In this document: in pieces, positions 8,601 through 11,249 of the stretch | Layout of the letters: each line of letters opens with the position of its first letter | Numbering within the stretch: the first letter of the stretch is position 1 | Sequence record: PV857777.1 | From: Escherichia phage Ec_O157kw | Reading direction: 5' to 3' (one strand) | DNA: 64,000 nt | Translations under genes and position numbers: made by a program | The notes under the pieces: generated by a model | The model's input: only the letters and a program-made list of their open reading frames with translations | Database searches by the model: none | Told to the model about the DNA's origin: nothing

Positions 8601-8705
8601 ATGAAAGTTTTGTTTGTTGTGTATGTGATGATTCAATATTATCACCCGATGTTTACTTATAATCTGGTGAACAACATTATTGATATTATTCAAAGGAGTA
8701 TGTAA
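8601..8705 (+). CDS. Hydrophobic micro-ORF (34 aa), possible leader peptide
   Basis: MKVLFVVYVMIQYYHPMFTYNLVNNIIDIIQRSM after SD GGAGAAGAGA; its 3' end contains the SD (AGGAG) for the next gene. Confidence 0.3.
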   Translation: MKVLFVVYVMIQYYHPMFTYNLVNNIIDIIQRSM

Positions 8706-8707
8706 TT

Positions 8708-9265
8708 GTGAGTGAGTCGAAGAGAATCAATATGAAACGATTAGTATTAGAAGTTAGTCCGCTTTTTGGTGAATTGGCTATAGAAAAAGTAAATAACATG
8801 TATCGTTTGACGCAAGAAGACGATATGCTGTATTTTACGCCTAGTGAAATCATTCATTTAACCCAAATTGAATATCCTTATACTGATAAAATAGTAAGCA
8901 TCAATGATGAGCACAAAATTCATTTTTATTCTTCATGCCCAGGATTTAATATTAAAAGTGAGTCAATGTGTTTATCAGTTATTCATTGGGATAGTTTTAT
9001 AGCTAAGATTAAATATTTTTATTATTCTAATGAAAGAAAACATAGTTTAAAATGGCTCAAAAATTGCAATGCTATTATTACTAACGATTGCAATCAGAAT
9101 GATGAAACTCTTTTAAATGTATCAAAATGTTATGAAGAGGGAGATGTCTTAACTATTCGTCAAATTGATGATTTTCGATCACATATTGTCACATTTACCA
9201 AAGACGAAGCTATTGCGCTAAAGACTTATCTTGATTCTGTCATTCCAACTATGATTTCAAAGTGA
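8708..9265 (+). CDS. Hypothetical protein, paralog of the following gene
   Basis: 185 aa from GTG 8708 (SD AGGAG 10 nt upstream), or 177 aa from ATG 8732; C-terminus KDEAIALKTYLDSVIPTMISK resembles C-terminus of ORF 9272. Confidence 0.55.
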   Translation: MSESKRINMKRLVLEVSPLFGELAIEKVNNMYRLTQEDDMLYFTPSEIIHLTQIEYPYTDKIVSINDEHKIHFYSSCPGFNIKSESMCLSVIHWDSFIAKIKYFYYSNERKHSLKWLKNCNAIITNDCNQNDETLLNVSKCYEEGDVLTIRQIDDFRSHIVTFTKDEAIALKTYLDSVIPTMISK

Positions 9266-9271
9266 GGAAAT

Positions 9272-9793
9272 ATGTTTATTTCAAGTGAAAGCGGTTTAAT
9301 TCGTGTTGAATTTAAAAATGACATCTTCCTTATTCAAGGAGATGATATTATTAAAATGAGTTATGACGAAATCAAGAAAATTTGTCATACTCTTAAAAGT
9401 CGTGGAAAAGGAAATGCTACTATCGATATAGGTGATTTATGGGTGACACTTTATGAAGTATCCGAAGGATTTAACATTGAAGATGAAAACAACATCTTAG
9501 CTATTGATAAAAGAAGTGATTTGTTTGATGTGTTAAAAGTTTATGAACAGTCAAACGGTGGAAGAAAAGCTGCATTGATTTATCAAAAACCGCATTCATG
9601 CGGAACTGCTTCAATCATTTCAGATATTGAAGATGAAACTGATACTTATATGTGTATTTTAAAAGCTGGTGGTGACCGTCATCCGGATTTTATTTCTATT
9701 CGTCAAAACAATGGAGAAATTTCATTATCAAAATCAGAAGCTGAAGCTATGATTAAGTATTTAACAACTGTTACACCTTCAATGAAAGGATAA
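9272..9793 (+). CDS. Hypothetical protein, paralog of the preceding gene
   Basis: 173 aa; SD GTGAGGAAA; C-terminus KSEAEAMIKYLTTVTPSMKG. Confidence 0.6.
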   Translation: MFISSESGLIRVEFKNDIFLIQGDDIIKMSYDEIKKICHTLKSRGKGNATIDIGDLWVTLYEVSEGFNIEDENNILAIDKRSDLFDVLKVYEQSNGGRKAALIYQKPHSCGTASIISDIEDETDTYMCILKAGGDRHPDFISIRQNNGEISLSKSEAEAMIKYLTTVTPSMKG

Positions 9794-9795
9794 TT

Positions 9796-10242
9796 ATGAT
9801 TATTAATGAAAACTCTTGGCACGTTCGTATGCATGATTTCTTTTACTGGCAGCGTCCGAATTCTTTGTGTAAATATTTCTGGAAAATGGCGTGGACGTTC
9901 TTAGTTATCGGTGTTATTTGCACATCGGGGCTATTAGGTAGTTGGGTGGTAGGACAAGCTATTTTAAGTCAATTTGGTGTTACAGGATTCTGGCTTCTAC
10001 ACGCAGGCGGAACCGTATTTGGTGTACTGATATTTGCTACGATTGTCGTTATTGCAGTAGGTATAGCATATATTGTAGCTAAGATTTCAGGTTTATGGGA
10101 AGGAGTCAGGTATGATAGAGCGTGGAAGCGTCAACAAGACGAAGAAAACGGTATTGAACATCCTAATAGTGTAATCGTTGAATACCTTAAAGCTAGTAAA
10201 TCTAAAATCTGCCCTATGATAGAATTTAAGGATGTTAAATGA
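9796..10242 (+). CDS. Integral membrane protein (about 3 TM segments)
   Basis: 148 aa; hydrophobic stretches WTFLVIGVICTSGLLGSWVVG, GFWLLHAGGTVFGVLIFATIVVIAVGIAYIV. Confidence 0.6.
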   Translation: MIINENSWHVRMHDFFYWQRPNSLCKYFWKMAWTFLVIGVICTSGLLGSWVVGQAILSQFGVTGFWLLHAGGTVFGVLIFATIVVIAVGIAYIVAKISGLWEGVRYDRAWKRQQDEENGIEHPNSVIVEYLKASKSKICPMIEFKDVK

Positions 10243-11249
10243 AAACAGTAATGAAAAGCTATTTCGGTAGTCATCTTTATGGAACTTCTACACCAGAATC
10301 TGATGTAGATTTTAAAGAAATCTTTGTTCCTCCTGCTCGTGATATTCTTATCGGAAATGTTAAAGAGCATATGAGTAAAAATACTAACAATACATCATCT
10401 AAAAACACTAAAGATGATATTGACCATGAACTATACAGTCTTAAATATTTCTTTAAATTAGCAGCAGATGGTGAAACTGTAGCGTTGGATATGCTTCACA
10501 CTCCACCTGAACTAGTGGTTAAATCTGATTTGCCTGATGTGTGGAAGTTTATTCAAGACAACCGTTCTCGTTTTTATACGACTAACATGAAATCATATTT
10601 AGGATATGTCCGCAAGCAAGCTTCTAAATACGGCGTCAAGGGTTCTCGTTTGGCTGCATTACGTGATGTATTGAAAGTAGTTAATCAAATCCCTGAGCAA
10701 TGGGTTGATTACCAAGAAGACGGTTCCATTAAGCAGCGTCGTACTAAAGTTGAAGATATTAAGCATCGTCTTCCAGAAAACGAATTCTGTGAATGGGTGT
10801 TCCATAATCATGAGAAAACAGGCCCACAAACGTTCTACACTGTGTTGGGTCGTAAATATCAGACAACGCTTTCTCTTATTGAGCTTAAGCAGTCACTGAA
10901 CAAATTAGATGCTGAATACGGTGAACGTGCTCGTAAGGCCGAAGCCAATGAAGGCATTGATTGGAAAGCACTAAGTCATGCTTGTCGTGGTGGACTCCAA
11001 CTATTGGAAATTTACAAAACTGGTGACTTAGTCTATCCACTTCAAGATGCTCCATTTATTCTCGACGTGAAGTTGGGTAAACATCCATTTAAAACAGTTC
11101 AAGAGTTTTTGGAAGATGTGGTCGATCAAGTAGAAGCAGCATCTACTGAAGCTTCTAAGAACGGTATGCCTAAAACAGTAGACATGAGTTTCTGGGATGA
11201 CTTCCTCGAACAGGTTTATCTTGAAAACCACCGAAGTTATTATAAATGA
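10239..11249 (+). CDS. Pol-beta-superfamily nucleotidyltransferase-like protein
   Basis: 336 aa; N-terminal hG[GS]x10-D-x-D motif (FGSHLYGTSTPESDVDF) followed by a helical C-terminal domain; start ATGA overlaps the membrane-protein stop. Confidence 0.6.
   Translation: MKTVMKSYFGSHLYGTSTPESDVDFKEIFVPPARDILIGNVKEHMSKNTNNTSSKNTKDDIDHELYSLKYFFKLAADGETVALDMLHTPPELVVKSDLPDVWKFIQDNRSRFYTTNMKSYLGYVRKQASKYGVKGSRLAALRDVLKVVNQIPEQWVDYQEDGSIKQRRTKVEDIKHRLPENEFCEWVFHNHEKTGPQTFYTVLGRKYQTTLSLIELKQSLNKLDAEYGERARKAEANEGIDWKALSHACRGGLQLLEIYKTGDLVYPLQDAPFILDVKLGKHPFKTVQEFLEDVVDQVEAASTEASKNGMPKTVDMSFWDDFLEQVYLENHRSYYK

What the first reader, a model, noticed from the sequence alone, without database searches (positions are those of the whole stretch)
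8601..11249. Coupled module: leader micro-ORF, paralog pair, membrane protein, Pol-beta-type nucleotidyltransferase
Downstream of an early promoter (8543) lie a 34-codon hydrophobic micro-ORF, two paralogous ~175-aa proteins with matching C-termini (KDEAIALKTYLDSVIPTMISK / KSEAEAMIKYLTTVTPSMKG), a 3-TM membrane protein, and a 336-aa protein whose N-terminus carries the minimal nucleotidyltransferase signature hG[GS]-x10-DxD (FGSHLYGTSTPESDVDF). The module closes with a strong terminator at 11251. The membrane protein and the nucleotidyltransferase overlap by ATGA, implying co-translation. A phage nucleotidyltransferase paired with a membrane partner could modify nucleotides, RNA ends or signalling molecules; I recognise no characterised T-even function for it.
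Basis: partly seen in the sequence, partly recalled or inferred. Interest (0 to 1): 0.65.

Follow-up and report, generated by a model that had tools for sequence, protein, structure and literature searches.

The report
T4 NrdC.11 RlaP nucleotidyltransferase operon
This is the known early gene cluster mobD.2–mobD.1–nrdC.11 of a T4-like phage, whose last gene is a catalytically intact RNA-repair-type (RlaP) nucleotidyltransferase that probably restores nucleotides on cut tRNAs; it is largely ordinary, apart from an untested hint that the small membrane protein upstream travels with phage RNA-repair genes.

Summary
A T4-type early promoter (8543-8572) is followed by a 34-codon ORF, two paralogous proteins of 177 and 173 aa, a 148-aa membrane protein, a 336-aa nucleotidyltransferase overlapping it by ATGA, and a strong terminator (11251-11270).

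The window is a Tequatrovirus and these are annotated genes: mobD.2, mobD.1 plus a second y05I paralog, a phrog_944 membrane protein, and nrdC.11, which is 98.5% identical to T4 NrdC.11.

[quoted passage not shown] GS, D22/D24 and D62 are conserved in 198 homologs, and the AF2 model (pLDDT 94) shows a Pol-beta nucleotidyltransferase (NTase) domain plus a helical domain. Full-length bacterial homologs sit beside RtcB, Pnkp, Hen1 or Ro60.

The most likely function is template-independent addition of 1-2 nucleotides to RNA 3'-OH ends during tRNA repair, as shown for Pseudomonas RlaPs in a 2025 preprint. This is not a CBASS-like signalling enzyme.

The membrane protein is not an obligate partner. 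T4 carries the mobD homing endonuclease in its place, and another phage lacks the whole upstream block. It is more likely 2-TM than 3-TM. Its family does recur next to RlaP or Rnl1/kinase genes in several phage lineages, which is a modest new lead.

Verdict: already known, low-to-moderate interest.

The parts
8543..8572 (+). T4-type early (sigma-70) promoter GTTTAC-N18-TATAGT with an extended-10 TG
   Evidence: There are 18 such motifs in the window, all on the + strand, against 0.8 expected by chance.
8601..8705 (+). mobD.2, a 34-aa small protein (phrog_3515)
   Evidence: E 2e-20. The peptide core VQYxxP[ML]FTYN is conserved across genera. It is preceded by an AAGGAG Shine-Dalgarno sequence.
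8732..9265 (+). mobD.1, a y05I-family protein of 177 aa
   Evidence: Pfam T4_y05I_N at 5e-39 and T4_y05I_C at 2e-21. It is the ortholog of T4 MobD.1.
9272..9793 (+). Second y05I paralog, 173 aa
   Evidence: Pfam T4_y05I_N at 8e-32 and T4_y05I_C at 3e-23. BLASTP against mobD.1 gives E 1e-8. It is absent from T4.
9796..10242 (+). Small inner-membrane protein of 148 aa (phrog_944), probably 2 TM with both ends cytoplasmic. It has conserved SWHxR..LCxYFW and KAxKxKxCPxIEF motifs and is a rare allele.
   Evidence: (E 3.5e-43).
10239..11249 (+). nrdC.11, an RlaP-family (PF10127) Pol-beta nucleotidyltransferase of 336 aa. Catalytic residues are G10 S11, D22, D24 and D62. The C-terminal helical domain carries invariant R230, K243, H247 and R250.
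11251..11277 (+). Intrinsic terminator: 8-bp GC-rich stem, UUCG loop and U7 tract
   Evidence: -17.5 kcal/mol, z -3.7. The next early promoter lies at 11301.

Best explanation
The region is the early transcription unit mobD.2 - mobD.1 - (y05I paralog) - (membrane protein) - nrdC.11 of a T4-like phage.

Its enzymatic component, NrdC.11, is an RlaP-family Pol-beta nucleotidyltransferase. The proposed mechanism is as follows.
- It binds NTP-metal through G10-S11, D22, D24 and D62.
- Using the basic cleft formed with its C-terminal helical domain (R230, K243, H247, R250), it adds one or two nucleotides, without a template, to the 3'-OH of broken RNA.
- In infection this would restore nucleotides removed from tRNA anticodon loops by host anticodon nucleases such as RloC. 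T4 polynucleotide kinase-phosphatase (Pnk) and RNA ligase 1 could then reseal a functional tRNA.

Shown here:
- gene identities and operon structure;
- family membership;
- conservation of the catalytic residues;
- the fold;
- the RNA-repair gene neighbourhood of homologs.

Inferred:
- the RNA substrate, the 1-2 nt addition and the cooperation with Pnk/Rnl1, taken from work on Pseudomonas RlaPs and from published comparative genomics;
- any role for the upstream genes.

The upstream genes are co-transcribed but dispensable neighbours. The membrane protein may be a loosely linked accessory.
For: **Identity**
- The region is 98% identical in DNA to Tequatrovirus genomes.
- Gene-by-gene correspondence to AR1, SA20RB and T4 annotation holds.

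**Family**
- PF10127 RlaP scores 43.8 bits against a cut-off of 23.
- All 57 diverse homologs match RlaP.
- The protein matches phrog_388 nucleotidyltransferase at 1e-137.

**Catalytic residues**
- In 198 distinct homologs of 23-99% identity, G10, D22 and D24 are 97% conserved (the remainder are truncated ORFs).
- D62 is 99.5% conserved and D84 96%.
- Y131, R230, K243, H247, R250 and P267 are each at least 99% conserved.

**Structure**
- The AF2 model has pLDDT 93.9 and pTM 0.82. It shows an N-terminal beta-alpha-beta NTase core with D22/D24 on strand 23-30 and D62 on strand 61-67. It also has a helical C-terminal domain.

**Genomic context of full-length homologs**
- Seventeen of 80 bacterial or archaeal loci (32-54% identity) have an RNA-repair gene within 6 kb. 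These are RtcB (7 loci), Pnkp (6), Hen1 (4), Ro60/TROVE (4), and Rnl1 or kinase genes (2).
- In one metagenomic phage, a HAD_PNKP phosphatase lies directly upstream of a 40%-identical RlaP.
- In a marine T4-like contig, an AAA_33 kinase overlaps the RlaP gene, and Rnl1 and Rnl2 lie 3-5 kb upstream.

**Biochemistry of the family**
- Pseudomonas RlaPs add 1-2 NMP to RNA 3'-OH, prefer cleaved-tRNA mimics and Mn2+, and do not act on DNA. They also rescue aminoacylation of a tRNA lacking one anticodon-loop nucleotide (PMC12776372).
- The same role was predicted for phage RlaPs (PMC7824862).

**Dispensability**
- The nrdC.11-mobD.3 block is deletable in T4 (PMC9825161). This fits a conditionally useful counter-defence gene.
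Against: - No biochemical or genetic data exist for NrdC.11 itself.
- In this window and in T4, nrdC.11 is not next to pseT, rnlA or rnlB.
- The Pfam match covers only profile positions 23-142 of 249. NrdC.11 also carries a beta-rich insert of about 55 residues (154-208) that I could not check against the PfRlaP structure, because that structure is not in the PDB copy searched.
- In the preprint's similarity network NrdC.11 falls in cluster 5, not in cluster 1a with the characterised enzymes.
- The closest solved structure is HalB, a DNA-synthesising NTase.
- Most bacterial homolog loci (63 of 80) show no recognisable RNA-repair neighbour.
Confidence: 0.6

Rival explanations
1. NrdC.11 is a HalB-like template-independent DNA (oligo-dA) synthase that works with the upstream membrane protein. 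This would make the pair either a phage copy of a Hailong-like system or an anti-Hailong device that replenishes the oligodeoxyadenylate keeping the HalA channel closed.
For: - Hailong is also a two-gene operon of a transmembrane protein plus an NTase (PMC13434031).
- An invariant tyrosine (Y131) sits in a lower-confidence loop. HalB primes synthesis on a tyrosine.
- RlaPs can use dATP efficiently.
Against: - Similarity to HalB is at fold level only, at 15% identity. Neither the single sequence nor full-length or N-domain profiles hit any PDB sequence, even at E=10.
- The Pfam assignment is RlaP. Characterised RlaPs do not extend DNA.
- A profile of the membrane protein family finds no HalA chain in the PDB, and the protein is only 148 aa.
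- There was no PADLOC hit.
- The NTase occurs without the membrane gene in T4, in locus L008 and in 34 of 78 viral loci.
- Bacterial homologs sit in RtcB, Pnkp and Hen1 operons, not next to TM effectors.
Confidence: 0.06
2. NrdC.11 tails or repairs other RNA 3' ends rather than anticodon-loop breaks. Examples are tRNA 3'-CCA ends, or tailing of host or phage transcripts to alter their stability.
For: - RlaPs label many E. coli RNAs in vitro, including rRNA and full-length tRNA, with little NTP specificity.
- NrdC.11 is not adjacent to ligase or kinase genes in T4-like genomes.
- It is made early, when the host RNA landscape is being remodelled.
Against: - No CCA-adding enzyme or poly(A)/(U) polymerase appears among the top fold matches. 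Cid1 and TUT7 matches have E>0.1.
- The RNA ligase and end-healing context of homologs points to break repair rather than tailing.
- RlaPs stop after 1-2 nt.
Confidence: 0.15
3. NrdC.11 nucleotidylylates a small molecule or a protein, in the manner of ANT, LinB or MNT enzymes. For example, it might AMPylate a host toxin or effector, and so would not act on RNA.
For: - Fold matches include kanamycin, lincosamide and aminoglycoside NTases and MNT-HEPN complexes.
- There are weak sub-threshold hits to MntA and NTP_transf_2.
Against: - All these matches are weak. Foldseek E-values are above 1e-3 and the sequence hits fall far below their cut-offs.
- RlaPs did not label E. coli proteins.
- The gene neighbourhoods contain RNA-repair genes, not toxin or antibiotic-related genes.
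Confidence: 0.08
4. The five genes do not form a functional module. They are unrelated early accessory genes that share a promoter and terminator because of T4 genome packing, and only nrdC.11 has an assignable role.
For: - T4 replaces paralog 2 and the membrane gene with the mobD homing endonuclease.
- L008 deletes window 8377-10237 precisely and keeps nrdC.11.
- Retention near nrdC.11 in 78 viral loci is uneven: micro-ORF 17, y05I 33, TM 44.
- Overlapping start and stop codons are common in the region.
- None of the upstream families occurs in the bacterial RlaP loci.
Against: - The membrane gene is always upstream of nrdC.11 and on the same strand. It is the most persistent neighbour of nrdC.11, down to about 54% NT identity.
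- Its family also lies next to Rnl1/kinase genes in unrelated Pseudomonas phages and in a marine T4-like phage.
Confidence: 0.55

Closest known systems
[quoted passage not shown]
   Same: - The HMM match is above the gathering score.
- The GS / DxD / D triad is present.
- The layout is an N-terminal NTase domain plus a C-terminal helical domain.
- Full-length homologs of the window protein lie in RtcB, Pnkp-Hen1 and Ro60 operons.
   Different: - NrdC.11 is about 336 aa against a 249-position family model, with a beta-rich insert at 154-208.
- It falls in a different similarity cluster (cluster 5) from the characterised enzymes.
- In T4-like phages it is not adjacent to a ligase.
- Its activity has not been tested.
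T4 NrdC.11 (NP_049709, 'nucleotidyltransferase')
   Same: This is the ortholog, 98.5% identical in protein. It occupies the same position upstream of nrdC.10 and has the same terminator and promoter arrangement.
   Different: In T4 the gene upstream is the mobD HNH homing endonuclease. Here the upstream genes are a second y05I paralog and a membrane protein.
Hailong HalB (PDB 9dbh), an oligodeoxyadenylate-synthesising NTase paired with the HalA membrane channel
   Same: - Both are encoded downstream of a membrane-protein gene.
   Different: - There is no sequence-level similarity.
- The membrane proteins are unrelated.
- HalB is a host defence component that makes DNA, whereas RlaPs act on RNA 3' ends.
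T4 RNA repair pathway (Pnk/PseT plus Rnl1 against the PrrC anticodon nuclease)
   Same: The biological logic proposed here is the same: a phage counter-defence that restores cleaved tRNA.
   Different: NrdC.11 would add a step, refilling excised nucleotides. This step is not part of the classical heal-and-seal pathway and has never been demonstrated for T4.

Membership tests
RlaP (PF10127) | Match to the family HMM at or above the curated gathering score | tested here: met
   The window protein scores 43.8 bits against a cut-off of 23, E 3.3e-11. All 57 aligned homologs match. The match covers profile positions 23-142 only.
RlaP (PF10127) | Pol-beta catalytic signature: hG[GS], DxD and a third conserved Asp ('three strictly conserved aspartates', PMC12776372) | tested here: met
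   G10-S11, D22, D24 and D62 are conserved in 97-99.5% of 198 homologs. In the AF2 model D22/D24 lie on strand 23-30 and D62 on strand 61-67.
RlaP (PF10127) | N-terminal NTase domain plus C-terminal helical domain, with the last helix packing back onto the NTase domain | tested here: inconclusive
   The AF2 secondary structure shows the NTase core (1-112) and helical regions (118-149, 213-335). No coordinates were available to check the packing of the last helix. The model also has an extra beta insert at 154-208.
RlaP (PF10127) | Genomic association with RNA ligases and end-healing enzymes | tested here: met
   The feature is not met inside this window. It is met for full-length homologs: RtcB, Pnkp, Hen1, Ro60 or Rnl1 lie within 6 kb in 17 of 80 bacterial loci. 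In phage contigs, HAD_PNKP or an AAA_33 kinase is adjacent to the RlaP gene.
RlaP (PF10127) | Adds 1-2 NMP to RNA 3'-OH and does not act on DNA | not testable with these tools
   This needs purified protein. It is known only for Pf/PaRlaP.
Hailong HalB/HalA | Sequence homology of the NTase to HalB | tested here: not met
   [not shown]
Hailong HalB/HalA | Partner gene encodes a HalA-type tetrameric channel with a cytoplasmic oligo-dA-binding crown | tested here: not met
   A profile of the membrane protein family finds no HalA chain in the PDB. The protein is 148 aa with short termini. There was no significant PADLOC hit.
Hailong HalB/HalA | Tyrosine-primed poly-dA synthesis | not testable with these tools
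   An invariant Y131 exists, but its role is unknown.
CD-NTase (CBASS) / cGAS-like signalling NTases | cGAS/DncV-like fold or profile match | tested here: not met
   [not shown]
CCA-adding enzymes / poly(A) polymerases | Class I/II CCA head-neck architecture or a PAP-like fold match | tested here: not met
   These were absent from the Pfam hits. The only related fold matches were Cid1 and TUT7 at E>0.1.
Minimal NTase / MNT antitoxins (NTP_transf_2, MntA) | Profile match above cut-off and a HEPN toxin partner | tested here: not met
   NTP_transf_2 scored 13.6 bits against a cut-off of 21. MntA scored 13.2 against 60. There is no HEPN gene nearby.
T4 y05I family (PF24449 + PF24448) | Both N- and C-terminal domain models matched above cut-off | tested here: met
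   Both paralogs match both models at E 1e-21 to 1e-39.
phrog_944 phage membrane protein | Profile match plus hydrophobic core and conserved terminal motifs | tested here: met
   The match is E 3.5e-43. S7, H9, C25, Y27, K137 and C139 are invariant in 26 members. Two strong hydrophobic segments are present.

The most novel reading that the evidence does not exclude
The small 2-TM protein family (phrog_944) may be a membrane-anchored accessory of phage RNA-repair modules rather than a random neighbour. Its features are an N-terminal SWHxR..LCxYFW motif, a C-terminal KAxKxKxCPxIEF motif, and invariant His and Cys residues at both cytoplasmic ends.

Evidence for a non-random association:
- It lies upstream of the RlaP gene, on the same strand, in 44 of 78 T4-like loci, despite turnover of the genes between them.
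- It lies directly next to an Rnl1 ligase plus P-loop kinase cassette in unrelated Pseudomonas Pakpunavirus-type phages.
- It lies one ORF from Rnl1 in a marine T4-like phage.

It could tether or regulate tRNA repair at the membrane. Alternatively it could sense membrane-associated ribotoxin attack.
Probability: 0.2. Interest if true: 0.55.

Novelty: already known. Interest (0 to 1): 0.3.

Why it matters
T4 is where RNA repair was discovered. Hosts later evolved RloC, which excises the wobble nucleotide so that simple heal-and-seal repair yields a dead tRNA. An RlaP-type 'refill' enzyme in T4-like phages would be the missing counter-move.

NrdC.11 is conserved in more than 1,500 sequenced phages, yet it is untested and often mislabelled 'thioredoxin'. 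The value of this finding is mainly correct annotation and a clear, cheap experiment. The recurrent membrane-protein neighbour is a small additional lead.

Tried and rejected
- **Single-sequence AF2.** The model of NrdC.11 was useless (pLDDT 40). It was redone with a 57-sequence alignment.
- **PDB sequence searches.** Searches with the protein, the full-length profile and the N-domain profile found nothing. The PfRlaP crystal structure is therefore not available for direct comparison.
- **afdb50 fold library.** It was not installed.
- **PADLOC and NCBIfam.** They gave no significant hits for any of the five proteins.
- **Rfam.** It found no RNA family anywhere in the window.
- **y05I paralogs.** They have no PDB relative and there is no literature on them. 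Their function remains unknown beyond Pfam's 'putative transcription factor' label.
- **Primary Hailong paper.** It is not held in the library, so a review was used instead.
- **Word-indexed search with the membrane-protein profile.** It returned only 28 proteins. Several of their contigs (L086, L088, L092, L094) have only unannotated neighbours and say nothing either way.
- **Aeromonas phage AS-zj.** The membrane gene and the RlaP gene are about 70 kb apart.
- **CBASS/Thoeris-type signalling.** I considered it and rejected it, because there is no similarity to CD-NTases.
- **'Leader peptide' reading of the micro-ORF.** I considered it and judged it unlikely, because the peptide sequence itself is conserved across genera.
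Full report
**What is there**

The window is a Tequatrovirus. The 2.9-kb region is 98.2% identical to Escherichia phage SA20RB, and 367 phage records cover at least 80% of it.

- **Promoter.** The sequence at 8543-8572 is GTTTACAAGTTGGCAAGGTTATGGTATAGT, i.e. TTTACA-17-TATAGT with an extended-10 TG. 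It belongs to a class that occurs 18 times in the window, always on the + strand, against 0.8 expected by chance.
- **Terminator.** The hairpin at 11251-11270 has an 8-bp stem of which 6 pairs are GC, a UUCG loop and a U7 tail. It folds at -17.5 kcal/mol, z -3.7. The next early promoter, at 11301, starts the nrdC.10 unit.
- **ATGA overlap.** It is real, at 10239-10242.

**Gene identities**

Comparison with annotated records for AR1, SA20RB and T4 names the genes.

| Window coordinates | Gene | Notes |
|---|---|---|
| 8601-8705 | mobD.2 | 34 aa; phrog_3515, E 2e-20 |
| 8732-9265 | mobD.1 | y05I family |
| 9272-9793 | second y05I paralog | y05I family |
| 9796-10242 | unnamed membrane protein | phrog_944, E 3.5e-43 |
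| 10239-11249 | nrdC.11 | 98.5% protein identity to T4 |

- The two paralogs match Pfam T4_y05I_N and T4_y05I_C. They align to each other at 26% identity, E 1e-8.
- The micro-ORF peptide is conserved across genera, with the core VQYxxP[ML]FTYN. It therefore looks like a genuine small protein rather than a regulatory leader.
- The membrane protein has two strong hydrophobic segments (36-52 and 74-90), K/R-rich termini and a charge-free middle. The same pattern recurs in 26 family members. A 2-TM hairpin with both ends cytoplasmic is more likely than the 3 TM proposed.

**The nucleotidyltransferase**

- *Family.* NrdC.11 matches Pfam PF10127 (RlaP) above the gathering score (43.8 against 23 bits). 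All 57 diverse homologs that I aligned do the same.
- *Size of the family.* There are 3,502 cluster representatives at E<=1e-3. Homologs occur in 1,564 phage records.
- *Conserved residues.* In 198 distinct homologs of 23-99% identity, the GS turn, D22 and D24 are conserved in all full-length sequences. D62 is conserved in 197 of 198, and D84 in 96%. A C-terminal set (Y131, R230, K243, H247, R250, P267) is essentially invariant. A third carboxylate is present.
- *Structure.* An alignment-based AF2 model is confident (pLDDT 93.9). It has a Pol-beta beta-alpha-beta core with D22/D24 on one strand and D62 on another. This is followed by a helical segment, a beta-rich insert (154-208) and a C-terminal helical bundle.

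**Function from context and literature**

A 2025 preprint (PMC12776372) reports the following.
- Pseudomonas RlaPs add one or two NMPs to RNA 3'-OH ends.
- They prefer cleaved-tRNA mimics and Mn2+, and they do not act on DNA or protein.
- They rescue aminoacylation of a tRNA that lacks one anticodon-loop nucleotide before ligation.
- The authors explicitly place T4 NrdC.11 in the family (cluster 5) as uncharacterised.

Earlier comparative genomics predicted that phage RlaPs refill nucleotides removed by RloC-type nucleases (PMC7824862).

I tested the context claim independently on relatives of this very protein. Among 80 bacterial or archaeal loci encoding full-length homologs (32-54% identity), the neighbours within 6 kb were as follows.
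- RtcB in 7 loci, Pnkp in 6, Hen1 in 4 and Ro60/TROVE in 4. These were confirmed by Pfam at E 1e-8 to 1e-168.
- Two further loci have Rnl1 or kinase genes.
- In total 17 of 80 loci carry an RNA-repair gene nearby, often as an immediate neighbour with a 4-nt overlap.

Phage contigs show the same link. In one, a HAD_PNKP phosphatase directly precedes a 40%-identical RlaP. In a marine T4-like contig, an AAA_33 kinase overlaps the RlaP gene, with Rnl1 and Rnl2 upstream.

The best-supported mechanism is therefore RNA 3'-end refilling in tRNA repair, in cooperation with T4 Pnk and Rnl1. The last step is inference. The Pnk and Rnl1 genes lie elsewhere in T4 genomes, and no NrdC.11 experiment exists. 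The block nrdC.11-mobD.3 is deletable in T4 (PMC9825161), as expected for a conditional counter-defence gene.

**Is it a coupled module?**

Only loosely.
- T4 has the mobD HNH homing endonuclease exactly where this phage has paralog 2 and the membrane gene (window 9291-10237).
- A 98%-identical IMG/VR phage (L008) lacks window 8377-10237 entirely and fuses the mobD.3 region to nrdC.11.
- Start/stop overlaps are common in this region.
- None of the upstream families occurs in the bacterial RlaP loci.

On the other hand, among 78 viral loci the membrane gene is the most persistent neighbour of nrdC.11.
- It is present in 44 loci, always upstream and on the same strand.
- It is directly adjacent in 11 loci, with one gene between in 16, two in 7, three in 6, and four to six in 4.
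- For comparison, nrdC.10 is retained in 35 loci, y05I in 33 and mobD.2 in 17.

The membrane-protein family also appears in RNA-repair contexts outside the T4-like group.
- In Pseudomonas Pakpunavirus-type phages it lies immediately upstream of an Rnl1-type RNA ligase and a P-loop kinase, and downstream of a metallophosphoesterase.
- In the marine contig it lies one small ORF downstream of Rnl1.

Counter-examples exist. In AS-zj the two genes are about 70 kb apart, and several contigs have only unannotated neighbours. I treat a functional link between this membrane protein and RNA repair as a lead with a probability of about 0.2.

**The HalB resemblance**

The closest solved structure is HalB, and Hailong is also a membrane-protein-plus-NTase pair. 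I therefore considered a Hailong-like or anti-Hailong role.
- No sequence-level relation to HalB is detectable.
- The membrane protein shows no HalA similarity.
- The Pfam assignment and the operon context both point to RNA repair.

I rate this rival at about 0.06.

**Verdict**

The NTase call is correct and the enzyme is probably active. However, it is the already-annotated T4 NrdC.11 and a recognised member of the RlaP RNA-repair family. It is neither an unrecognised enzyme nor a signalling enzyme. The 'module' is a co-transcribed but separable set of accessory genes. Novelty: already known. Interest: 0.3.

Noticed in passing
window 10239-11249 and its orthologs in public records: NrdC.11 orthologs are very often annotated 'thioredoxin' in GenBank and UniRef. 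MobD.x ORFs are annotated 'molybdopterin-guanine dinucleotide biosynthesis protein MobD' in RefSeq. Both are gene-name propagation errors.
   Followed up: partly
window 9822-10174 (core of the membrane-protein gene): This segment has no DNA match in otherwise 93-98% identical phages (L007). Only 7 of 751 phage records carry a protein allele of at least 95% identity, and the rest are at most 40% identical. The gene behaves as a hypervariable or swapped cassette with conserved N- and C-terminal motifs. The invariant residues are S7, H9, C25, Y27, K137 and C139.
   Followed up: partly
L008 (IMGVR_UViG_2974742932_000001) versus window 8377-10237; T4 (L002) versus window 9291-10237: Two independent rearrangements end at exactly the base before the nrdC.11 start codon (10238). 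One is a clean 1.86-kb deletion and the other is the mobD homing-endonuclease insertion. This suggests a recombination or homing hotspot at that junction.
   Followed up: partly
window 8601-8705: The 34-aa MobD.2 peptide is conserved across T4-like genera with the core VQYxxP[ML]FTYN[LV]V. It is probably a functional micro-protein of unknown role.
   Followed up: partly
window 11365-12333 (nrdC.10): This is a 322-aa protein with sub-threshold hits to AAA and STAND P-loop families (bit scores below Pfam's cut-offs) and a weak C-terminal HTH_37 hit. It has its own early promoter at 11301. It is retained next to nrdC.11 in 35 of 78 viral loci.
   Followed up: no
L148, L154, L130 (bacterial MAG loci): Tandem RlaP paralogs (about 325 aa followed by about 270 aa) with 4-nt overlaps lie downstream of Pnkp or RtcB. 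RlaP may act as a heteromer in some bacteria.
   Followed up: no
L005 (Pseudomonas phage JG004, 1443-5267) and L093: A compact putative RNA heal-and-seal cassette is present. It consists of an HD-type hydrolase (per the GenBank annotation; no Pfam hit here), a Metallophos_2 phosphoesterase, an HTH protein, a phrog_944-like membrane protein, an Rnl1-type ligase and an AAA_33 kinase.
   Followed up: partly
window, whole length: All 18 T4-early promoter motifs (GTTTAC-N18-TANNNT) are on the + strand. No Rfam family reaches its gathering score anywhere in the 64 kb.
   Followed up: no
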